Source: a virus (lineage: Duplodnaviria > Heunggongvirae > Uroviricota > Caudoviricetes). Taken from it: a stretch of DNA of 11,019 nt. The notes below the pieces were generated by a model, which was given only the letters and a program-made list of their open reading frames with translations, was not told where the DNA came from and did no database searches. The stretch lies in IMG/VR virus record IMGVR_UViG_2534681990_000030; one strand, given 5' to 3'. Below are positions 1 through 11,019 of the stretch, piece by piece. The position numbers and the translations under genes are program-made. How positions within the stretch are numbered: position 1 is the first letter of the stretch; each line of letters begins with the position of its first letter.

Positions 1-186
1 TCATTGGTTGCCAGCCCGCGAATCAAGTTTGTTCTGGATCCAAGCTTCAACCTCCTCAAGCGACCATCTAGCTGATCTACCAATTTTAACTGGCTGTGGA
101 AACGTGCCCGTCTTAACCCATGAGTAGATTGCCGTTTTCTTGAAGCCCGTTCTGAGCATGACTTCGCTTAATTTGATAAGGCGCAT
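1..186 (-). CDS. alpA: AlpA-family phage transcriptional regulator (small HTH DNA-binding protein)
   Basis: 61-aa ORF MRLIKLSEVMLRTGFKKTAIYSWVKTGTFPQPVKIGRSARWSLEEVEAWI matches the AlpA pattern (L..EV...G.S...IY.....G.FP.PVKIG.R...W...E...W). ATG at 186-184 with GAGGAG 6 nt upstream; stop at 3-1. It is transcribed out of the window to the left. Confidence 0.75.
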   Translation of the reverse strand: MRLIKLSEVMLRTGFKKTAIYSWVKTGTFPQPVKIGRSARWSLEEVEAWIQNKLDSRAGNQ

Positions 187-382: not shown

Positions 383-412
383 GTGAAGAATCACCCTGGC
401 TAGCAATATAAT
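383..412 (+). promoter_or_regulatory. Candidate sigma70 promoter for the small gene at 438 (-10 TATAAT at 407-412, weak -35 around 383-389)
   Basis: Perfect TATAAT hexamer 26 nt upstream of the ATG; the -35 match is poor. Sequence-only prediction. Confidence 0.3.
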
Positions 413-437
413 GCCGATCACCATCAGAGGGGAATCC

Positions 438-629
438 ATGACACCACGAGAAATCGAGCTGCTGACCATTGCCAAGCTGGAGCATGGCGGCCACCAGCTC
501 AGCCCGGCAGAACTGCGGGAATTAAGGCGCCAGCTGGCAGAGGGCCCTGTAATAGCCAGGCGGTACCGCGAAATGATGACCAGCCCCGCATATCGCTGGA
601 GCAAACCAGCGCCGCTCCGTGCGCGGTGA
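438..629 (+). CDS. Small hypothetical protein (63 aa), paralog A of a duplicated family
   Basis: ATG at 438 with AGAGGGG 5 nt upstream. I chose 438 over the track's 411 because the paralog at 1438 starts at the equivalent MTPREI and cannot extend upstream (in-frame TGA at 1432-1434). N-terminal 21 aa are 20/21 identical to the 1438 ORF; shared C-terminal REMM..PAY.W.KPAP motif. Confidence 0.6.
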   Translation: MTPREIELLTIAKLEHGGHQLSPAELRELRRQLAEGPVIARRYREMMTSPAYRWSKPAPLRAR

Positions 630-1437: not shown

Positions 1438-1623
1438 ATGACACCACGCGAAATAGCCTTATTGACCATCGCCAAACTTGAGCACGGAGGCCACCAGCTT
1501 ACACAGGCAGATCAACGGGAGATAGAACGATCAGTTAATGCCGATATAGCCCGGCGCGACAGGTTCCGCGAAATGATGCGAGCACCTGCCTACCAGTGGA
1601 AGAAGCCAGCGCCGCGCAGGTAG
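1438..1623 (+). CDS. Small hypothetical protein (61 aa), paralog B of a duplicated family
   Basis: ATG at 1438 with AGAGGG 8 nt upstream. Same N-terminus (MTPREIALLTIAKLEHGGHQL) and C-terminal motif as the 438 ORF, with many synonymous nucleotide differences between the copies. Confidence 0.6.
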   Translation: MTPREIALLTIAKLEHGGHQLTQADQREIERSVNADIARRDRFREMMRAPAYQWKKPAPRR

Positions 1624-1743: not shown

Positions 1744-2286
1744 ATGTACCAGCTAAAGATAACCATCCGAGACAGCAAACCACCTATATGGCGGCGTGTG
1801 CTGGTTCCAGAGCAAATCCCCTTTAGTAAACTTCATGCCGTGATCCAGTTAGCTTTTGGCTGGAATGACGAACACCTGTATATGTTCGAGAAAGGGCGTA
1901 AAGGTGATCCAGGTAGCGAGTATCGCGTATGGGGTGAGGATGAAAGCATGGGTAACGCGGCAATCACGCCACTATGGGCGGCGCTCCAGAATGAGGGTGA
2001 CAAGCTGGTTTACACGTATGACTTTGGCGACTGGTGGGATTGCGTCATTGTGCTGGAGAAGCAAACACACGATACGAGTAATCAGCCCATTAGCTGCCTG
2101 CGTGGGAAAGGCACCACCCCGGCGGAAAACTCAGGCGGCTTGCATGGTTACAATGAATTGCTATTACAGGCCAGAGAGTCTGATAATCCTGAGCAGGCCG
2201 AGATCCACAATTTCCTGATGCTGGATATTGAACGCCGGGTTTACGACCTGAGCCGCATCAACGACAGATTGCAGGCTATTAACTGA
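1744..2286 (+). CDS. pRiA4b ORF-3-like family protein (function unknown)
   Basis: 180-aa ORF with the family hallmarks as I recall them: N-terminal LKITIRDSKPPIWRRVLVP....LHAVIQLAFGWNDEHLYMF, central YTYDFGDWWDCVIVLEK, and CLRGKG..PAENSGGLHGY. Preceded by an AT-rich promoter-like region (1624-1743). Confidence 0.7.
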   Translation: MYQLKITIRDSKPPIWRRVLVPEQIPFSKLHAVIQLAFGWNDEHLYMFEKGRKGDPGSEYRVWGEDESMGNAAITPLWAALQNEGDKLVYTYDFGDWWDCVIVLEKQTHDTSNQPISCLRGKGTTPAENSGGLHGYNELLLQARESDNPEQAEIHNFLMLDIERRVYDLSRINDRLQAIN

Positions 2287-2638
2287 CCCGCATGTATTCA
2301 CCTGATATTGCGTTGTCAGCGCCGCCAGTATCGCGCATAACAGCGCACTGACCGGGTAAACCGTAGCGCACGACCGTTGCGTTAGTATCACCGCCGCGCC
2401 GTATCTGGCGCGATTCATACACTGTCACCCGCTCAAGCAGTCCACCAGCAACCATGCTTTCCAGTGTGCGCCGGGTTGATTCGAGCTGGTGACGCTTATC
2501 GAACGACACCATGCCATGAAGCAGGTAGGCCACACCCGACACATCGAACGGCGGCGCACCAATCTCACCAGTCACCCATTCGAGGTTATCCGGTTCAAAG
2601 TAGCTAAGTATCTCTTTTTTGCGACTGGTCATTCTCAT
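2279..2638 (-). CDS. Hypothetical protein (119 aa), convergent with and overlapping the 3' end of the pRiA4b ORF-3-like gene by 8 nt
   Basis: ATG at 2638 with AAGGAA about 10 nt upstream. The N-terminal two-thirds (MTSRKKEILSYFEPDNLEWVTGEIGAPPFDVSGVAYLLHGMV...LESMVAGGLLERV) looks protein-like; the C-terminal third is low-complexity. A 7-bp inverted repeat (TTATTGT 2654-2660 / ACAATAA 2676-2682) lies just upstream of the RBS. Confidence 0.45.
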   Translation of the reverse strand: MRMTSRKKEILSYFEPDNLEWVTGEIGAPPFDVSGVAYLLHGMVSFDKRHQLESTRRTLESMVAGGLLERVTVYESRQIRRGGDTNATVVRYGLPGQCAVMRDTGGADNAISGEYMRVS

Positions 2639-2639
2639 G

Positions 2640-3274
2640 GCTGGCTGATTCCTTATTGTGGGATAGCACTATCATACAATAAGTGGGTTAAAGGGAGAGC
2701 GTTACCGCCTGATATGCTGTATGAATAACAACCAAATTTCAGGTGCGGAAAAAGATATGGGGGTACTTTTGGGGGTATCTATAAAAAATGAACAATAAAA
2801 AAGGCAACAAAAACAAAGCTTATCGCCTATGTGTATTGTTCCTATTATCGCACCATTTATATCAAGCAATTACGATTAAATCCTCTCTTTGTCTGCATCA
2901 TGATTTTTTCCGTGTAACTCCATGTGTAAGTAATTTTCGTCAACATAAATCAACAATAGAGCATCCGTATCTCAGATTGGCTCAGTCTTGTTGATTTTTT
3001 CATCTTGATGAAACAATATTTCTGATATTGATGTTGGACATTTGGGGGGGCAGCTTAGCAGGCCTGTACAGGTTGTTTCATTGATTATTGCTCTATATGC
3101 CTGCCCTTTTAGATAGCCCTTTCCTGTCTACTTCCATCTATGGTGTAATCCCTTGCGAGATTAAGGTTTCTTTCGAGAGATAGTATGGAATTATTCGAAA
3201 ATTATTTGTCAGCGTTACCTAAAAAAAAGCGATTGAGTAAAGTCAAGTTGATTATCCTAAAGAGATTATGGGTT
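2640..3274. other. ~630-bp AT-rich segment with no convincing ORF, located at the truncation point of the primase gene
   Basis: Markedly lower GC than the flanks. Only a 68-aa plus-strand ORF with implausible composition is present. Contains a G7 homopolymer (3044-3050) and an A8 tract (about 3219-3226). Confidence 0.5.
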
Positions 3275-3913
3275 TCAGATGATTTTGATTTTCCTAAACC
3301 TTGGGTCAGTCAGGAGTCTTTTTTCACCATGTGATGTAATAGTCTGTGCTGCTGTGACTGCGCCGGATTTATCCACCAGCGCCAGCAACAGAGATCCATC
3401 GGGCAACACGGGGAATGTAAAATCACCTACCCCTTTCGCAACCAGATAATCAGATTTGCCGTTTACAGCCTTTCTGCGCATGTCATCAAACTGACGGGAA
3501 AACGTATCCCGTCTTTGTTGTTCGTCCTTCTCTGCCCTTTTCAGGCGCTCCTGTTCGCGTCGCTGGCGCTCGGTTTCCAGTTGTTCCCGTTTCTGGCTGG
3601 TGGCTTCTGGTGTTTCCGTTGTCCGGTAATCAATACCCAGAACATCAGCGGCAAGAAGCGCCGCCTCTGTTGTGTCGCAGTTATTTACGCGTTTAATTAA
3701 ATCCAGCCCATCACCAGCGCCGCACTGATTACAGATGAAGCTACCGCGCCCGTTGTCATCGAACCGGAATCGATCTTTGCCCCCACATGCAGGGCAGGGA
3801 GCATGACGGCGCGGAGAGTCAGGGACATTTATGTTCAGGCAGCCCAGCACATGAGGCCAGTTGTTTTCAGACGCACTGATAACCTGACGGATAAGATCAA
3901 TGTTTCGCATCAC
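3275..3913 (-). CDS. DNA primase (P4 alpha / toprim-type), N-terminal zinc-ribbon portion only; apparently truncated before the catalytic Toprim and helicase domains
   Basis: 212-aa ORF containing HAPCPACGGKDRFRFDDNGRGSFICNQCGAGDGLDL (CxxC...CxxC primase zinc ribbon), a charged linker, then the first residues of a Toprim-like region (DYLVAKGVGDFTFPVLPDGSLLLALVDKSG), ending at a TGA at 3277-3275. Full-length homologs are typically 600-800 aa (from memory). Start is GTG 3913 or ATG 3910. Confidence 0.6.
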   Translation of the reverse strand: MMRNIDLIRQVISASENNWPHVLGCLNINVPDSPRRHAPCPACGGKDRFRFDDNGRGSFICNQCGAGDGLDLIKRVNNCDTTEAALLAADVLGIDYRTTETPEATSQKREQLETERQRREQERLKRAEKDEQQRRDTFSRQFDDMRRKAVNGKSDYLVAKGVGDFTFPVLPDGSLLLALVDKSGAVTAAQTITSHGEKRLLTDPRFRKIKII

Positions 3914-5689: not shown

Positions 5690-5880
5690 TTTTCACCCCC
5701 AAGAATTACCAGCTCGGCACGGGCATCGTTAACCAAAGATGAGCACGCTTTAATCGCATCCACGACATCAGTAGCGTCCATTTCTTCAGCCGAAAGACTG
5801 ACAGCAACCAGGACAGCCGCTGCTTGCTCGATTAATTGAAGTGCGGACGTAAGGCGAGGGGTATTAATTGAGTTATTCAT
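5686..5880 (-). CDS. Hypothetical small protein (64 aa from ATG 5880; the track ORF extends to 5937)
   Basis: ATG 5880 overlaps the preceding stop (5873-5875) by 8 nt. Start choice is uncertain. Confidence 0.4.
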   Translation of the reverse strand: MNNSINTPRLTSALQLIEQAAAVLVAVSLSAEEMDATDVVDAIKACSSLVNDARAELVILGGEK

Positions 5881-6091
5881 TGGTTGCCCCCGTTTTTCCT
5901 GGCATTTCGCCACCTTCCAGCAGGAAATGAACGTCACGAACGGCGAGATCCAATATCGCGAGTAACGCCTTCAGTCTTTCGTCTCGTGAGGGAGAGTTGC
6001 TCACCAGAATGTCGTTAATCACTTCTGTCAGTGTGATGATCTGGCTTGTGCGTTCGAGGGGATCCATATGCACATCGTAGGTTTTAATCAT
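5873..6091 (-). CDS. Hypothetical small protein (72 aa, [17 protein letters not shown]...); an internal in-frame start within the long 5873..6940 ORF
   Basis: ATG at 6091-6089 with GGAGGTG 4 nt upstream, overlapping the Icd-like stop by 8 nt. Sequence is protein-like, unlike the long ORF's frame immediately upstream. Confidence 0.4.
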   Translation of the reverse strand: MIKTYDVHMDPLERTSQIITLTEVINDILVSNSPSRDERLKALLAILDLAVRDVHFLLEGGEMPGKTGATNE

Positions 6092-6940
6092 GTGCCACCT
6101 CCATGCGGATACGACCAGCAAAAAAGCAGATGTGATCGCGCACCAGAGAACGGCGAGCATCGCGTTCAGACTCGGCAGCAATATGATGAATTTTGGCGGT
6201 AATTGTCGGGCAATCGCGGCGAACTGCGGCGATAATCCAGATAAATTGCGGTTTTTGGGTAGGGGTAGTAGCCAGCATGTGGCAGCCTCCTTGTACTGGG
6301 AGTTCTTCCCACCACCGGAGCTGCGAAACTCGCTGGTGGTGGACTGAACAGAGTTCGCAGTACCGGCGTACAAGGAAACCGGCCAGCCTTTCGGCTGCCC
6401 TGTCCAGCCCACCATAATTTTGCAAGCGACGCGGATTATAACCGCATCACTGAAAAAAGTGTGAGTCTGGCTAACGGCACAAAAAAAGACGCTCGGCGCG
6501 TCATGTGTCGCCTCGTACATTTCCGGGCTGCGAAACCCGGCACCCGTTTTATGAGGTGCCTTATAACCATAAACCGTGTTGCCGCATAACGGCAAGCTCT
6601 TTTTTATGGACTCCGAAAACTCACTATTGGAAGCACCAGATGCACAATACATCGCGCTCATTTCGTTAACGTCGCGCGTGTGGACGAAGGTTTTTGTGGA
6701 GTCACTACGCGAGCAGAGAAAGCCATCTACGACCAGAAATTCTCTGGCGCAGCCGCCGACCTTCTCAACGCTAACACCATCGACCGTAATTTCTGACATA
6801 GTTAAGGCATCCGCTCCCACCACCAGAAAATGATAAACTTTGCTTGTATCTGCTGTATTAATGCCAGACTTTGCTGTCATATTGCTGGATTTTGGCGACA
6901 TACCAGCCAGTGAAAATATCTTCTTCTGGACGGTTAGCAT
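5873..6940 (-). CDS. Long ORF (355 aa) of unresolved gene model: hypothetical protein whose first ~170 codons (6940 to ~6430) look protein-like; the remainder overlaps the Icd-like and 72-aa genes
   Basis: ATG at 6940 with GGAGG 7 nt upstream, overlapping the preceding gene's stop. The frame stays open to 5873, but between ~6425 and 6091 its translation is S/L/P/A-rich and unprotein-like while another frame carries the Icd-like gene with a strong RBS. Possible frameshift or lost stop. Confidence 0.35.
6084..6278 (-). CDS. Icd-like protein (host cell division inhibitor Icd-like family), 64 aa
   Basis: [64 protein letters not shown] resembles Icd-like small proteins of P4-type elements (recollection, not a search). 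ATG at 6278-6276 with AAGGAGG 8 nt upstream. It lies out of frame inside the long ORF 5873..6940. Confidence 0.45.
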   Translation of the reverse strand: MLATTPTQKPQFIWIIAAVRRDCPTITAKIHHIAAESERDARRSLVRDHICFFAGRIRMEVAHD

Positions 6941-7116
6941 TTGTTAACCTCCGCGAACTCCTTCATGAAGCGCGCCAGCGGTTGTACGCATGGCGATTGA
7001 TACCCGTCGCGATAAAACGTCACTCGGTTGTGAGACACGCTTTCGACAGTAACGAGTGCTCCGTGGGCATCCTTGTAGCGTTTTTGAGGTTGTGGTGTTC
7101 CTGTCGGCTTAAACAT
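6934..7116 (-). CDS. Hypothetical small protein (60 aa, [60 protein letters not shown])
   Basis: ATG at 7116-7114 with GGAGGTGG 4 nt upstream; overlaps the AntA-like stop. The track's longer ORF to 7203 would overlap the AntA-like gene by ~95 nt. Confidence 0.45.
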   Translation of the reverse strand: MFKPTGTPQPQKRYKDAHGALVTVESVSHNRVTFYRDGYQSPCVQPLARFMKEFAEVNKC

Positions 7117-7942
7117 GGACCACCTCCAGACGCTTAGCGAGCCAGCGTTGCGACAGGCGGGTGAGTTCTCCTTTGCGCTGCTCATATTCCATGCCCATAT
7201 CAATTAACGTGATATTGGTGCTTTCGAGATATGAGAGGTGCTCAAGTTGTTCTGCGTTCATATGGTCGCGAGGTTCGCCAGAATAGCCATTTATCCGCGC
7301 CCACTGCTTAGCAGTTAGCCCACCAAGAACGATACGAGAAATCATATTGCTCTCGTTTGTGTAGTGGTGTTGCTGCGTCGTTTTCCCCTGCTCGGCACGG
7401 GCCATATTCAGCGCATCGCACATTGGCTTAAAGTTGTTTGCGGCACTGATACGGGCTTTTAGCTGGCGAAGATAGCGGGCGGCGATTTCAGGAACGCTAC
7501 GCTGTAATTCTTCCTCGCACTGGATGAAATAACGGCGGATAGCGCGACCCTGATCATTGCGTTCGATCATTGCCAGTTCTTTCGCCATTCCGACACTTAA
7601 CAGATAGTCTTTGCCGGGTCTGCCAGACTGCTTAATCTTTCTGTAAGCCACGCCATTCGGGCTTTTCCCCAAATTTGGGGAAATAGTTTTATGGACTGAG
7701 TAATCGTGCCCAATGGTGAAGTCATATTCAGAGATGCGATCAGTGATCCATGTAGAGAAGTCTTTTCCCACGCCCAACGCTTTGTGTAACGCTTTTGCGC
7801 TAACAATATTGGTTTCACGCCCACCGATATGACCAGGAATAACCGGGACAATTGCGGCAAATTCATTACCGTTAATTGTGCTCAGAGAGGCGTTCAGATG
7901 AGGGGCGGCCTCAGAAATTAATCTGCTTTTTTCGATGTTCAT
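7109..7942 (-). CDS. Phage antirepressor-like protein (AntA/AntB N-terminal domain family)
   Basis: 277-aa ORF. N-terminal NIVSAKALHKALGVGKDFSTWITDRISEYDFTIGHDY matches the AntA/AntB antirepressor motif (ARDLH..L......F..WI..RI..Y.F..G.DF) as I recall it. GGAGA RBS; ATG at 7942. Confidence 0.6.
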   Translation of the reverse strand: MNIEKSRLISEAAPHLNASLSTINGNEFAAIVPVIPGHIGGRETNIVSAKALHKALGVGKDFSTWITDRISEYDFTIGHDYSVHKTISPNLGKSPNGVAYRKIKQSGRPGKDYLLSVGMAKELAMIERNDQGRAIRRYFIQCEEELQRSVPEIAARYLRQLKARISAANNFKPMCDALNMARAEQGKTTQQHHYTNESNMISRIVLGGLTAKQWARINGYSGEPRDHMNAEQLEHLSYLESTNITLIDMGMEYEQRKGELTRLSQRWLAKRLEVVHV

Positions 7943-7954
7943 TTTCAGTCTCCG

Positions 7955-8386
7955 TTAAGCGGCGTTAAACGCGTCCGGGTAGAGTTTCAGAATGTCGGCA
8001 ATTTCCTGCTGAGAAAGTCCGTTGTGATCATTTATGTTCGCAAGATGGTTAATATGAGTGATCACTTTCAGAACATCACCACGGCAGGAGAAACGGTAGC
8101 GAAGGTGTGTTCCGATACCATCAGGATTCTTTTCGTCGATACGCTCCAGAGTGATTCCAAGCTGGCGTTCTAACTCTGTTGCATAGTTACGACCAGAAGA
8201 CAGACGGCAGTAGCGAAGAATGTCATTTTCTGTCCATCCCTCTATACCAGTACGCAGCATATAGACTCTGGCACGATGCTTTTTCGGTGTGCGCTTTGGT
8301 GCTTGAAGGGATTTTGTAAGGGGCGTAACATCAGATACGCGAATATCTGAATTAGCCGCCTGTAATGGGCGGTTTTTCTTATTCAT
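7955..8386 (-). CDS. Hypothetical protein (143 aa), basic N-terminus; possible DNA-binding protein
   Basis: ATG at 8386 overlaps the alpA stop (TAATG). Lys/Arg-rich N-terminus (PKRTPKKHRAR). No specific family recognised. Confidence 0.5.
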   Translation of the reverse strand: MNKKNRPLQAANSDIRVSDVTPLTKSLQAPKRTPKKHRARVYMLRTGIEGWTENDILRYCRLSSGRNYATELERQLGITLERIDEKNPDGIGTHLRYRFSCRGDVLKVITHINHLANINDHNGLSQQEIADILKLYPDAFNAA

Positions 8387-8583
8387 TACGCTACCTCGCC
8401 ACGCGACTCAGCGATGCGCTGATTAATCCATTCTTCAATTTCACTTTCAATAAACGCAATTGATCGGCTTCCAATCTTTACAGATTGAGGGAATCGCTGT
8501 TCTTTGATGAGCCGATAAATCCACGCTTTGCTGTAACCAGTACGGCGTTGAACCTCAGAAAGACGAATAAATGATTGAGACAT
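8386..8583 (-). CDS. alpA: AlpA-family phage transcriptional regulator
   Basis: 65-aa ORF FIRLSEVQRRTGYSKAWIYRLIKEQRFPQSVKIGSRSIAFIESEIEEWI matches the AlpA pattern. AGGAG RBS 5 nt upstream of ATG 8583. Positioned as first gene of the coupled operon downstream of the integrase. Confidence 0.8.
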   Translation of the reverse strand: MSQSFIRLSEVQRRTGYSKAWIYRLIKEQRFPQSVKIGSRSIAFIESEIEEWINQRIAESRGEVA

Positions 8584-8664
8584 GTTTACTCCTATATTCT
8601 GTCATCTTCTTTAATGGACATCAGTAGACAGAAAGGAGATTAAACAAACCGGTGAATGGGTGAT

Positions 8665-8736
8665 AGCGGATAAAAATAAAATATTTTTTTGAGAAGATTA
8701 TCCGCTTTGAAATACACAGTAGCGTATTCAAAGCGG
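8665..8736. promoter_or_regulatory. Two overlapping perfect palindromes upstream of alpA: AGCGGATA (8665-8672) / TATCCGCT (8699-8706) around an AT-rich 26-bp spacer, and CCGCTTTGAA (8702-8711) / TTCAAAGCGG (8727-8736)
   Basis: Read directly from the sequence. Located 80-150 bp upstream of the alpA start in the AT-rich spacer after the 293-aa gene. No U-tract follows on either strand, so an operator is more likely than a terminator. Confidence 0.45.
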
Positions 8737-8780
8737 AAATCGCGAAATTTACTTAAAACGTTTACGTAGGATTTTGCTTG

Positions 8781-9662
8781 CTATAAATCTCTACTCATTA
8801 AATCAGATATTTTTATCAAGCTCATTTCTCTGTCTTTGTTTACATAAAGCTGAAGCAAGCGGGTGTATCTCTCGCTTATAGATTCAAGTGCAAAAGGCTT
8901 TATTGATTCCTTAATAGCCTGCGTATCTTTCGGATCATCACTAAAAACCAAGGCAGAAATCATCGGATTGCTCACTTCCTTACCTGACTTCTCACCCCAA
9001 ATCAGCAGATCAACAATAGGTATCACTCTATTAGATATCAACTTCTGAAGGGTCTTTAATCCAATCCTTTTCTGAGCGACATGCTCTCTCTCTGGTACTT
9101 TTAACTCTTTTCGCCATAGAGGTAGAAGGTGAGTCAGGCTGGTAATAATTTCGTCATCAGTGGCGTCATCTAAATCTATAGAAACGAGTATGATGTTAGG
9201 GGAACAATTACTTAGGTTTCCAGTAACACTCGCAAGCATAGCGTTTGCCTTGAGGTAGCAATCCTCTTCGTCTCTTTTAAAAAAGCCTTGATCTATCGAT
9301 GAGAAAGAGTACATGGCCAGCTCTGAAAATGTTACTGGACTAACCCCCATAGCTGAAGATAATGAGGGAAGATCATCGTACTCATTTCTTAATGATGGGG
9401 CTTCATCATTTACTTTGCGAATAAATTCTTCGACCTCTTCCTCTTCTTCATTGAGAATGGTTAGGTTAGGATCGCCCGAAAAAATCCTTTCATATTTTAT
9501 ATCGTACTCTTCTTTGAATATAGCAGTGTCATCTTTTGCATGACGCAATAAAAAATCGCGCCACTCTAATTCTTGAATCAAGTCCGGCAAGGTTAAATCA
9601 TTTAAAAATTCATAATTACTAATATCAAACCATGCTAAATCTTGTTTTTTGGCTCTCACCAT
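8781..9662 (-). CDS. Hypothetical protein (293 aa), low-GC orphan gene in the integrase-alpA slot; acidic stretches (NEEEEEVEEF); no recognisable catalytic motif
   Basis: Long ORF with ATG at 9662 and GGGGTGG upstream. Composition is clearly more AT-rich than the flanking integrase and alpA operon, and it is bounded by AT-rich spacers. Confidence 0.6.
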   Translation of the reverse strand: MVRAKKQDLAWFDISNYEFLNDLTLPDLIQELEWRDFLLRHAKDDTAIFKEEYDIKYERIFSGDPNLTILNEEEEEVEEFIRKVNDEAPSLRNEYDDLPSLSSAMGVSPVTFSELAMYSFSSIDQGFFKRDEEDCYLKANAMLASVTGNLSNCSPNIILVSIDLDDATDDEIITSLTHLLPLWRKELKVPEREHVAQKRIGLKTLQKLISNRVIPIVDLLIWGEKSGKEVSNPMISALVFSDDPKDTQAIKESIKPFALESISERYTRLLQLYVNKDREMSLIKISDLMSRDL

Positions 9663-9804
9663 ACGCCACCCCGCGCCCCTAATTCTGACGGCTATGCCAG
9701 CCCGTAGGGGTGTACGGGTTTTCGGGGATCAGCCTAGACATAGCCTATTCTTTGTTCGTCTACATAAGTCTACTACCATTGCTTAACACGGTCTATTCAT
9801 ACAG

Positions 9805-11019
9805 TTAAGCTCGTTTCCCAAACGAACCATGAACAACGTTCTCCTCCTTCTCCAGCGCATCCATATAGTCGGCATACCATTGAAGCATCTCCCGCCTTCC
9901 ATCCAGATATTGCGCATGGTTGTATGTGCCACGAATTGAGTTCTTATCAACGTGAGCGAGCTGCGTTTCTATCCACGCGGTGTTATAGCCCTGCTCATGC
10001 AAAATCGTGCTCATAGTGTGCCGGAACCCATGACCAGTTACACGTCCAGCGTAGCCAATGCGCTTAAACACTTGGTTTATGCTGGCCTCACTCATTGTTT
10101 TCCTTGGATCATTGCGCCCGGGAAACATAAGAGGGTAATTGCCTGTTATTTCTCTAATCTTCCCAATAAGCGAAAGAGCCTGATCAGACAATGGCACAAT
10201 ATGAGGCCGCCGCATTTTCATACGTGAAGCGGGTATCTCCCAGATAGCCTTGTTGAAATCAATTTCATCCCATAATGCGCCACGTAGTTCGCCAGTCCGC
10301 AAGCCGGTGATAATCAGTAGACGAGCCGCCATAACAACCAATGCGCTTCCTGAGTAACTGGACAATGCCTTGAAAAAATCAGGTAATTCTTTAGCTGTAA
10401 GGAAAGGGTAATGATTAGATTCATGGCCTTGCATCGCGCTAGTAAGGTCTGGTGCAGGGTTATACTCTGCGCGACCAGTGACTATTGCATAGCGGAAAAC
10501 TTCCCCGCACCGCTGCCTCACTTTTTTGGCTTTTTCTGTAGCACCGCGCCCCTCGATGCGCCGCAGCACATTCAGAAGTTCAAGTGGTTTGATTTCGGCG
10601 ATTGGTTTTTTGCCAATGTAAGGGAACACATCTTTGTTGAAGGCTTCGAGGATGTCTGAAGCATAACCAGCAGACCATTTTTTTAATTTGCTGCTGTGCC
10701 ACTCAAGGGCAATATCTTTGAAGGTGTTGTTTAACTGCGTTTCCCGGGCAATCTTTTCCTCTCGTTTCGCTTCCATCGGATCGATACCACCAGCGATACC
10801 TCTTTTCGCATCTTCACGTTTTGCCCGAGCATCGGCTAGAGTAACCTCAGGATACACACCTAGTGCCAATAGCTTCTCTTTACCAGCTACACGATATTTA
10901 AGTCGCCAGTATTTACCTCCATTAGGTTTTACCAAGAGATACAAACCGCCACCATCGGCCAGCTTGTAAGCCTTCTCTTTTGGCTTGGCTGTGTCTATTT
11001 GACGGGCATTGAGTTTCAC
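9805..11019 (-). CDS. int: Tyrosine recombinase / phage integrase (P4-type); N-terminus at or just beyond the window edge
   Basis: 404-aa ORF with an N-terminal arm-binding-type motif (AKPKEKAYKLADGGGLYLLVKPNGGKYWRLKYR) and C-terminal catalytic signature HGFRHT ... IRGTYNHAQY (HxxR and nucleophile Tyr). The first codon in the window is GTG at the very last base, so the true start may lie upstream. Confidence 0.9.
   Translation of the reverse strand: MKLNARQIDTAKPKEKAYKLADGGGLYLLVKPNGGKYWRLKYRVAGKEKLLALGVYPEVTLADARAKREDAKRGIAGGIDPMEAKREEKIARETQLNNTFKDIALEWHSSKLKKWSAGYASDILEAFNKDVFPYIGKKPIAEIKPLELLNVLRRIEGRGATEKAKKVRQRCGEVFRYAIVTGRAEYNPAPDLTSAMQGHESNHYPFLTAKELPDFFKALSSYSGSALVVMAARLLIITGLRTGELRGALWDEIDFNKAIWEIPASRMKMRRPHIVPLSDQALSLIGKIREITGNYPLMFPGRNDPRKTMSEASINQVFKRIGYAGRVTGHGFRHTMSTILHEQGYNTAWIETQLAHVDKNSIRGTYNHAQYLDGRREMLQWYADYMDALEKEENVVHGSFGKRA

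What the first reader, a model, noticed from the sequence alone, without database searches (positions are those of the whole stretch)
8584..9804. Low-GC orphan 293-aa gene inserted between the integrase and alpA
The 8781..9662 ORF is visibly more AT-rich than the integrase and the alpA operon on either side and sits in AT-rich spacers. It has acidic low-complexity stretches and no motif I recognise (no P-loop, no nuclease or HTH signature). The int-alpA slot is a known variable position in CP4/P4-type islands (CP4-57 carries yfjH there, from memory), so this looks like horizontally acquired cargo of unknown function, possibly anti-phage or host-interaction. A hairpin plus T-run at 9701-9722 is oriented for the plus strand, which may insulate the gene from antisense transcription.
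Basis: partly seen in the sequence, partly recalled or inferred. Interest (0 to 1): 0.6.

Follow-up and report, generated by a model that had tools for sequence, protein, structure and literature searches.

The report
DUF6387 gene in int-alpA slot
The AT-rich 293-aa gene between the integrase and alpA is real but not an orphan: it belongs to a widespread uncharacterised family (DUF6387) that always sits just upstream of alpA in integrative islands, and the "terminator" hairpin beside it is part of a known structured RNA that forms the gene's own leader.

Summary
The ORF (8781-9662, minus strand, 293 aa) and its low GC (0.38 against 0.48 for int) are confirmed. It is not an orphan. It matches Pfam DUF6387 (132 bits), RefSeq already labels it so, and the family has about 517 clusters at 50% identity. 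In every context sampled the gene lies directly upstream of alpA and is co-oriented with it: P4/PICI-like islands, EARL/ROD21-type islands including ICEKp258.2, a Serratia island and marine contigs. It is almost absent from phages and plasmids. The slot is nonetheless variable. In sister E. coli islands the segment from the ATG to the alpA ribosome-binding site is replaced by unrelated acidic proteins. K-12 yfjH is also unrelated. The hairpin at 9701-9722 is stem P3 of the Rfam int-alpA RNA (9677-9744, minus strand). This leader is supported by covariation and is kept, with its Shine-Dalgarno, whatever the cargo. The protein has no fold relative, no catalytic motif and no PADLOC hit. It is under purifying selection but diverges much faster than AlpA. 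Its N-terminal half is acidic and its C-terminal part basic. Best reading: a replaceable, non-enzymatic accessory protein expressed from a conserved platform, probably acting in island-phage conflict. A role as an AlpA-linked regulator is a serious rival. Function is untested.

The parts
9805..11019 (-). P4-type tyrosine integrase (404 aa). It borders the slot on the att/tRNA side.
   Evidence: Pfam Arm-DNA-bind_3, Phage_int_M and Phage_integrase. In strain E2855 it lies next to tRNA-Thr/proA.
9745..9804 (-). Spacer between int and the leader. It holds three direct TAGAC repeats (9795-9791, 9772-9768, 9762-9758) and a near-dyad, ACTG-N10-CAGT, starting at the int stop codon. These are probably protein-binding or promoter-control sites.
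   Evidence: Three copies in 60 nt where about 0.07 are expected. The motifs are conserved across genera and in front of unrelated cargos. No consensus sigma-70 promoter was found. A regulatory role is inferred, not shown.
9677..9744 (-). int-alpA RNA (Rfam RF02996): an outer stem P1 enclosing hairpin P3 (9701-9718). It forms the 5' leader of the slot gene.
   Evidence: 46.7 bits against a gathering score of 35.8. Across 16 distinct leaders, 96.7% of cells are paired and 8 pairs show compensatory changes; 0 of 500 shuffles reach this, and register-shifted controls give 24-38% paired. The RNA is also present upstream of unrelated cargos in L013 and L014.
9666..9672 (-). Shine-Dalgarno sequence GGGGTGG (GAGGTGG in most relatives), 3 nt before the ATG.
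   Evidence: Read directly from the sequence. It is conserved in 15 of 16 leaders, including those in front of unrelated cargos.
8781..9662 (-). DUF6387 family protein, 293 aa. Residues 1-165 are acidic and residues 196-293 are basic and helical.
   Evidence: Pfam 132 bits. dN/dS is 0.21 against the 90%-identical ortholog. Charge profile. AF2 model pLDDT 71.8.
8696..8741 (-). Hairpin of about 20 bp, 40 nt after the stop codon. It is probably the terminator of the slot gene and is exchanged together with the cargo.
   Evidence: RNA fold of the spacer gives z = -4.6. Every cargo allele carries its own, different hairpin at this place. Terminator function is inferred.
8584..8695 (-). AT-rich spacer upstream of alpA. 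It includes an inverted TAGAC copy and the alpA ribosome-binding site. Homology with sister islands resumes at 8589.
   Evidence: GC of the whole 3' spacer (8584-8780) is 0.340. Breakpoint. Motif.
8386..8583 (-). AlpA/Vis-type excisionase and transcriptional regulator (65 aa). It is the constant downstream partner of the slot.
   Evidence: Pfam Phage_AlpA, E 8.9e-20. It is 51-95% identical across all loci that carry DUF6387.

Best explanation
The gene is the usual, but replaceable, occupant of a dedicated accessory slot just inside the integrase and immediately upstream of alpA. The island is a decayed P4/PICI-like element inserted at tRNA-Thr.

The slot has a fixed expression platform that does not change with the cargo. 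It consists of conserved TAGAC-repeat DNA, a structured 5' leader (the int-alpA RNA) and a strong Shine-Dalgarno sequence. The coding sequence and its own terminator hairpin are what gets exchanged.

The DUF6387 protein has no catalytic motif, transmembrane segment or fold relative. It combines an acidic N-terminal half with a basic helical C-terminal part. I therefore propose that it acts by binding rather than catalysis, and that it most likely recognises or blocks a phage or rival-element component (helper interference or defence).

Shown: family membership, synteny, cassette boundaries, RNA structure, purifying selection and fast divergence. Inferred: the binding mode, the conflict role, and that the leader controls expression of the cargo.
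For: Family membership. Family size.

Slot variability and exact breakpoints.

Leader conserved through to the ATG whatever the cargo, with covariation. Against L015 the leader stays 92-95% identical while the CDS falls to about 60%.

Each cargo has its own 3' hairpin.

The position is equivalent to the main defence hotspot of P4-like satellites, 'between the integrase and psu-delta-sid' (PMC13586616; PMC8628076).

Fast, mosaic evolution: DUF6387 ranges over 25-90% identity where AlpA ranges over 51-95%. dN/dS is 0.21.

Low GC holds for every cargo in the slot.

The two alternative cargos are also acidic, with net charges of -21 and -12.
Against: There is no hit to any PADLOC model or NCBIfam model, and no recognisable effector domain.

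Typical defence genes appear in many contexts. DUF6387 was never seen away from alpA, and it is almost absent from phages (1 of 50,697) and plasmids (5 of 72,556). That points to a function tied to the island's own int/alpA module.

Psu-delta-sid is absent here, so the equivalence with the P4 hotspot is positional only.

Confidence: 0.4

Rival explanations
1. DUF6387 is a life-cycle regulator or sensor that works with or on AlpA. One example would be a fast-evolving sensor of a helper-phage or host signal that controls alpA expression or AlpA activity. That would be a functional analogue of the divergent Stl repressors next to int in SaPIs. The unrelated proteins in sister islands would then be non-homologous replacements doing the same job.
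For: The gene is adjacent to and co-oriented with alpA in every independent context. These include island backbones that share nothing else (EARL-type L043, L044 and ICEKp258.2; a Serratia island; marine L008; S. houtenae L039).

Its identity tracks AlpA rather than Int. It is almost absent from phages and plasmids.

All replacements are of similar size (265-318 aa), and the two E. coli replacement cargos (L013, L014) are acidic, whereas K-12 YfjH is neutral.
Against: The conserved cis elements (TAGAC repeats, leader, alpA RBS) stay the same when the gene is swapped for unrelated proteins. They are therefore not allele-specific operators.

The island already has C4-RNA immunity.

The gene is co-directional with alpA and has its own terminator-like hairpin, unlike the divergent repressor arrangement.
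Confidence: 0.3
2. It is an establishment or anti-defence factor. The strongly acidic N-terminal half would act as a DNA or protein mimic that neutralises a host restriction system, a nucleoid protein such as H-NS, or another defence when the island enters a new cell.
For: Net charge is -20 and pI 4.6, concentrated in residues 1-165. The family median pI is 5.16. The two alternative E. coli cargos (L013, L014) are also acidic. The gene lies at the edge of mobile islands, and in EARL-type islands it is the first gene next to att. Those EARL islands are AT-rich and carry H-NS paralogs.
Against: There is no sequence or fold similarity to Ocr, ArdA or other known mimics. About a quarter of family members are not acidic. 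K-12 YfjH in the same slot is neutral. Nothing indicates early expression on entry.
Confidence: 0.12
3. One reading: the hairpin and T-run at 9701-9722 is a plus-strand terminator that shields the gene from antisense transcription.
For: Read on the plus strand, the sequence is CCCGTA-GGGGTG-TACGGG followed by TTTT.
Against: The terminator scan did not call it, since there are only 4 T. It is P3 of a minus-strand Rfam family. G-U pairs in the enclosing stem only work on the minus strand. No credible plus-strand gene reads into it.
Confidence: 0.03
4. The ORF is a decaying or non-functional remnant in a degraded island.
For: The island is decayed. The primase is reduced to a 212-aa stub, and IS1203 truncates the island in O111 strains.
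Against: The ORF is intact and identical in at least 85 E. coli genomes. dN/dS is 0.21. Length is conserved at 292-297 aa across genera. Motifs are conserved across a family of about 517 clusters.
Confidence: 0.02

Closest known systems
Main defence hotspot of P4-like satellites (gop-beta-cII in P4), between int and psu-delta-sid
   Same: It is the first position inside the integrase on the side away from att. Its content is highly variable and AT-rich among otherwise similar elements. The island here has P4-type C4/isrK immunity and a P4-type primase stub.
   Different: There is no psu-delta-sid here, and the far border is alpA. The cargo is a single non-enzymatic gene with no PADLOC hit. The slot has a conserved structured RNA leader that P4 itself lacks. 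DUF6387 is a deeply conserved occupant rather than one of many.
CP4-57 yfjH slot of E. coli K-12 (intA-yfjH-alpA)
   Same: The same int-X-alpA position, a similar size (318 aa), a low GC of 0.368 against 0.476 for intA, and unknown function.
   Different: There is no sequence relationship. yfjH lies on the opposite strand and has no int-alpA RNA leader. The protein is neutral rather than acidic.
DUF6387 genes of EARL/ROD21-type islands (ICEKp258.2 ORF28; the neighbour of RDF SEN1998 in ROD21)
   Same: The same Pfam family, directly upstream of and co-oriented with an AlpA-type RDF. That RDF was shown to bind the att regions in ROD21 (PMC8844411).
   Different: Identity is only about 25-28%. 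The pair sits at the island end opposite int, so it is divergent from int across attP in the circular form. There is no int-alpA RNA. The backbone differs (MOBQ relaxase, pilus, H-NS). That SEN1999 itself is a DUF6387 protein was not verified here.
Rfam int-alpA RNA motif (RF02996)
   Same: The window copy scores above the gathering threshold, has the consensus P1 and P3, and lies between int and alpA.
   Different: Rfam lists the family as an sRNA gene. Here it ends 14 nt before a start codon. It is kept with the Shine-Dalgarno across three unrelated cargos, which argues for a 5' leader. These copies lack the U-run that follows P1 in the consensus. P2 is reduced to about 2 bp.
SaPI Stl master repressors
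   Same: A gene next to int, upstream of the excision/activation genes, that is extremely divergent or non-homologous between related islands.
   Different: Stl has a recognisable HTH and is transcribed divergently. DUF6387 has no HTH hit, is co-directional and has no allele-specific operator in the conserved flanks. This is an analogy only.

Membership tests
Pfam PF19924 (DUF6387) | HMM score above the curated gathering cutoff over most of the profile | tested here: met
   132 bits against a cutoff of 28.9. Protein residues 5-269 match profile positions 6-256 of 258. All 60 diverse relatives hit only this family.
Pfam PF19924 (DUF6387) | Family-wide conserved residues (W11, Y17, R184; F12, R35, D169, L180, D218, W222) and a length of about 260-330 aa | tested here: met
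   All are present in the window protein. The invariant and near-invariant columns come from a 60-sequence alignment at 23% mean column identity. Length is 293 aa.
Rfam RF02996 (int-alpA RNA) | Covariance-model score at or above the gathering score | tested here: met
   46.7 bits against 35.8, full-length match to model positions 1-71, minus strand 9677-9744.
Rfam RF02996 (int-alpA RNA) | Base-paired stems supported by compensatory change | tested here: met
   16 distinct leaders: 96.7% of cells paired, 8 pairs with changes on both sides, 0 of 500 shuffles reach this, register-shifted controls 24-38% paired. P2 of the consensus is nearly absent here.
P4-like satellite (SatelliteFinder core: int, psu, delta, sid, alpA, ash, alpha) | Presence of the helper-subversion genes psu, delta and sid | tested here: not met
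   No such Pfam hit among the 15 window ORFs scanned, and nothing lies between int and alpA except the slot gene. The window may not cover the whole element.
P4-like satellite (SatelliteFinder core: int, psu, delta, sid, alpA, ash, alpha) | int, alpA, alpha primase and C4-type RNA immunity | tested here: inconclusive
   int and alpA are present, as are C4 and isrK. The primase is only a 212-aa Zn-ribbon stub.
Known anti-phage defence systems (PADLOC-DB v2) | Match to a defence-protein HMM | tested here: not met
   0 families at E<=1 for the protein, and likewise for the two alternative cargos and YfjH. DefenseFinder models and anti-defence libraries were not available.
Known anti-phage defence systems | Experimental protection against phage | not testable with these tools
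   Needs phage challenge assays.
   Not reported by the scan. There are only 4 T. The stem belongs to a minus-strand structure.
EARL/ROD21-like genomic islands | Backbone of MOBQ relaxase, TraD, type IV pilus and H-NS paralog, together with int and RDF | tested here: not met
   None of these are in the window. Only the DUF6387-alpA pair is shared.
HTH or winged-helix DNA-binding regulators | Recognisable DNA-binding domain by sequence or fold | tested here: inconclusive

The most novel reading that the evidence does not exclude
The int-alpA RNA and its upstream TAGAC-repeat DNA form a conserved expression platform for a swappable one-gene slot. DUF6387 and its non-homologous replacements would then be the long-missing sensor or gatekeeper of AlpA-driven induction in Gram-negative satellites and ROD21-type islands. 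Each allele would recognise a different phage or host cue, as Stl proteins do in SaPIs.
Probability: 0.15. Interest if true: 0.75.

Novelty: new member of a known kind. Interest (0 to 1): 0.45.

Why it matters
DUF6387 is a sizeable family of about 517 clusters with no function, no fold relative and no literature beyond annotation tables. Yet it sits next to the excision regulator in islands of clinical interest, such as ICEKp258.2 of K. pneumoniae ST258, ROD21-type islands of Salmonella, and islands of O111 STEC.

The data show three things. The gene is tied to alpA. It is exchanged as a precise ATG-to-RBS cassette. The Rfam int-alpA motif is its 5' leader. Together these turn two "known unknowns" into a single testable unit. 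One deletion or expression experiment in a mobilisable relative could say whether the slot encodes defence, anti-defence or induction control.

The result also shows that low GC here is a property of the slot rather than a mark of recent insertion.

Tried and rejected
1. Homology to K-12 YfjH: none by BLASTP or Pfam.
2. Remote homology between DUF6387 and the alternative cargos: hhalign probability below 1% for single sequences and 0.13% profile against profile.
4. Modelling the C-terminal domain alone gave a worse model (pLDDT 61), so I ran no fold search on it.
5. The leader as a target of the island's C4 immunity RNA. The full-length duplex energy test did not discriminate, since the positive control also failed. 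Seed complementarity is only 6 nt against 10 nt elsewhere. Rejected.
6. A hairpin pairing the region just after P1 with the Shine-Dalgarno sequence: 87.5% paired, 11 of 500 shuffles reach it. Inconclusive.
7. The leader in P4 and CP4-57: absent. It is also absent from the 25-28% DUF6387 alleles and the EARL-type loci.
8. A sigma-70 promoter between int and the gene: none at consensus thresholds. An AAGAAT hexamer ends 2 nt before the RNA model, too close to be a convincing -10 box for a transcript that includes P1.
9. TAGAC repeats as P4-type Int arm sites: the P4 arm repeats (TKGGGGGCAYAW) are unrelated.
10. Scans with the diverse alignment A2 for distant loci failed because no stretch was conserved enough. 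Two single-protein scans found nothing.

Full report
**1. The observation**

The window contains an ATG-started ORF at 8781..9662 on the minus strand, 293 aa. It lies between a P4-type integrase (9805..11019, minus) and an AlpA-family gene (8386..8583, minus).

A proper composition analysis confirms the low GC. The CDS is 0.380 and the 3' spacer (8584-8780) 0.340, against 0.476 for int, 0.489 for the AntA-like gene and 0.476 for the whole window. Only 1.1% of 882-nt windows are as low, and the only other such tract is 2476-3550. The 5' spacer is not AT-rich (0.514).

The protein is acidic: pI 4.6 and net charge -20, all of it in residues 1-165. Residues 196-293 are basic, with pI 9.3.

**2. 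Not an orphan**

The protein matches Pfam PF19924 (DUF6387) at 132 bits against a cutoff of 28.9, covering almost the whole profile. It also hits an unannotated PHROG. It has no NCBIfam or PADLOC hit.

The identical DNA occurs in 85 complete E. coli genomes, mostly O111 STEC, where PGAP calls it "DUF6387 family protein". Another 11 genomes carry it at 80-90% identity. In strain E2855 the island sits at tRNA-Thr next to proA and is cut by IS1203 after antA.

Close homologs of 292-297 aa occur in Escherichia, Salmonella, Yersinia, Pantoea, Pectobacterium, Enterobacter, Klebsiella, Providencia, Morganella and Xenorhabdus. A profile search of 1.84 billion representatives gives 517 clusters at E<=1e-3.

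Across 60 diverse members only W11, Y17 and R184 are invariant, with F12, R35, D169, L180, D218 and W222 nearly so. That is not a recognisable catalytic set.

The gene is under purifying selection: dN/dS is 0.21 against the 90%-identical ortholog.

**3. Structure**

An AlphaFold2 model built on 30 sequences is mostly helical, with pLDDT 71.8 and pTM 0.64. Residues 1-90 and 200-290 are confident and the middle is poor.

The C-terminal part modelled alone is worse (pLDDT 61). The two halves therefore probably pack together.

**4. The hairpin is part of a known RNA on the other strand**

Rfam places the int-alpA RNA (RF02996) at 9677..9744 on the minus strand, at 46.7 bits against a gathering score of 35.8. 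It also finds C4 (6332-6419) and isrK (6482-6559), the P4-type immunity RNAs.

The RNA ends 14 nt before the ATG and is followed by a strong Shine-Dalgarno sequence (GGGGTGG, 9666-9672).

I collected 16 distinct leaders from genomes, IMG/VR and metagenomes. P1 (11 bp) and P3 (6 bp) are 96.7% paired, with 8 pairs showing compensatory changes. No shuffle out of 500 reaches this, and register-shifted controls give 24-38% paired. The commonest pair at one P1 position is U-G, which only works on the minus strand.

The plus-strand terminator reading is not supported.

Between the int stop codon and the RNA lie three direct TAGAC repeats, where about 0.07 are expected, and a dyad. Both are conserved across genera. 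No consensus promoter is present. Whether the leader has its own regulated promoter or is read through from int remains open.

**5. The slot is truly variable, with precise borders**

K-12 CP4-57 does carry yfjH between intA and alpA. It is unrelated, on the opposite strand and without the RNA.

Two E. coli islands are more telling. Both have homologous int, leader and alpA but unrelated genes after the leader. L013 carries a 265-aa acidic coiled-coil protein that is present in 148 complete genomes. L014 carries a 294-aa protein found in one complete genome, with relatives in Citrobacter, Serratia and Yersinia. Profile-profile comparison gives a 0.13% probability of homology.

Against L014, homology runs from int through the leader to the ATG (9660) and resumes at 8589, 6 nt before the alpA start. 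Each cargo brings its own, different hairpin after the stop codon. In the window this is 8696-8741, and the spacer folds at z = -4.6.

Against L015 the integrase is 97% identical. The leader stays 92-95% identical, the DUF6387 CDS falls to about 60%, and the 3' spacer cannot be aligned.

In every locus the slot gene is 8-14 GC points below int, whatever the gene. The exception is a low-GC marine host.

**6. DUF6387 is nevertheless tied to alpA**

Every context I could sample has DUF6387 immediately upstream of alpA and co-oriented with it:
- Enterobacterial P4/PICI-like islands with alleles from 100% down to 25% identity (L003-L007, L012, L015-L036, L040).
- A S. houtenae tRNA-Leu island (L039).
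- Marine metagenome contigs at 22% identity, which have two tandem copies (L008-L010).
- EARL/ROD21-type elements, where the pair is divergent from int (L043, L044, and ICEKp258.2 ORF28/27 in PMC10763509).
- A Serratia island (PMC9964261).

These come.

The family is almost absent from phages (1 of 50,697 records) and plasmids (5 of 72,556). Identity to the window protein spans 25-90%, where AlpA spans 51-95% and Int is uncorrelated.

The leader RNA is limited to one sub-lineage. It accompanies DUF6387 alleles of 42-100% identity and the two unrelated cargos. It is absent from P4, CP4-57, the 25-28% alleles, the EARL-type elements and the marine loci.

**7. Interpretation**

What is firmly shown is the architecture. 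A conserved expression platform (repeat DNA, structured leader, Shine-Dalgarno) precedes a one-gene cassette that carries its own hairpin, lodged between int and alpA.

The position is the int-proximal one that serves as the main defence hotspot in canonical P4-like satellites (PMC13586616, PMC8628076). However, psu-delta-sid is missing here.

The protein has no enzyme signature and evolves fast under purifying selection. It is replaceable by unrelated proteins, and the two E. coli replacements (L013, L014) are also acidic. I therefore favour a non-enzymatic binding protein that acts in island-phage or island-host conflict (confidence about 0.4).

The exclusive linkage to alpA, which is unusual for defence genes, keeps a regulator or sensor role alive (about 0.3). 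An acidic mimic or anti-defence role is possible (about 0.12). None of these has been tested.

**8. Novelty**

The gene is a catalogued member of a domain-of-unknown-function family, and the RNA is a catalogued Rfam motif. Variable int-proximal slots are known in satellites.

Three points appear not to have been stated before:
- The int-alpA motif is the 5' leader of this slot and is retained across unrelated cargos.
- Exchange runs precisely from the ATG to the alpA ribosome-binding site.
- DUF6387 is linked to alpA across unrelated island families.

I found no paper that assigns the family a function. I rate it a new member of a known kind, of moderate interest.

Noticed in passing
window 6332-6419 (-) and 6482-6559 (-): C4 antisense RNA (81 bits) and isrK (69 bits), the P4-type RNA immunity region. 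The 355-aa ORF 5873-6940 (-) that overlaps them is probably not a real gene.
   Followed up: partly
window 3275-3913 (-) and 2476-3550: The primase is only a 212-aa Zn-ribbon stub, where full-length relatives are about 890 aa. It is followed by an AT-rich tract (GC<=0.40). The island looks decayed and is probably unable to replicate.
   Followed up: partly
window 1-186 (-): A second AlpA-like ORF (MRLIKLSEVMLRTGFKKTAIYSWVK...) that runs off the window end. This suggests a second island module in tandem.
   Followed up: no
window 411-629 (+), 1438-1623 (+), 1744-2286 (+): Two paralogous small ORFs share MTPREI.LLTIAKLEHGGHQL. Next to them is a PRiA4_ORF3-domain protein (Pfam E 1e-42).
   Followed up: no
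window 7109-7942 (-): AntA-type anti-repressor whose C-terminal half hits the PADLOC candidate defence model PDC-S22 (E 1.2e-10).
   Followed up: no
window 9758-9795, 9735-9739, about 8625; L003 4495-4665; L013/L014 between tRNA and int: The TAGAC motif recurs in four places: downstream of int (3 direct copies), inverted inside stem P1, just upstream of alpA in many loci, and between the tRNA and the int start. It is probably the binding site of an unidentified island protein. It is unrelated to the P4 Int arm repeats.
   Followed up: partly
L008 1619-3330, L009 221-1932: Marine metagenome islands carry two tandem DUF6387 paralogs between int and alpA, with only 53 nt between int and the first copy.
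   Followed up: no
L013 2674-3471 (-): The alternative slot cargo is a 265-aa acidic coiled-coil protein with no family. It occurs in 148 of 5426 complete E. coli genomes, more than DUF6387 (96). It is equally uncharacterised.
   Followed up: partly
L014 2616-3500 (-): The 294-aa alternative cargo has no Pfam family. It has relatives in Citrobacter, Enterobacter, Serratia, Yersinia and Pectobacterium. Its N-terminus (CSLERAAKFFGCEIDDFFHWYE) looks like an excisionase-type HTH by eye only.
   Followed up: partly
L001 11179-12392: In O111 strain E2855 the same island is truncated by an IS1203 insertion immediately after the antA gene, next to rclB.
   Followed up: no
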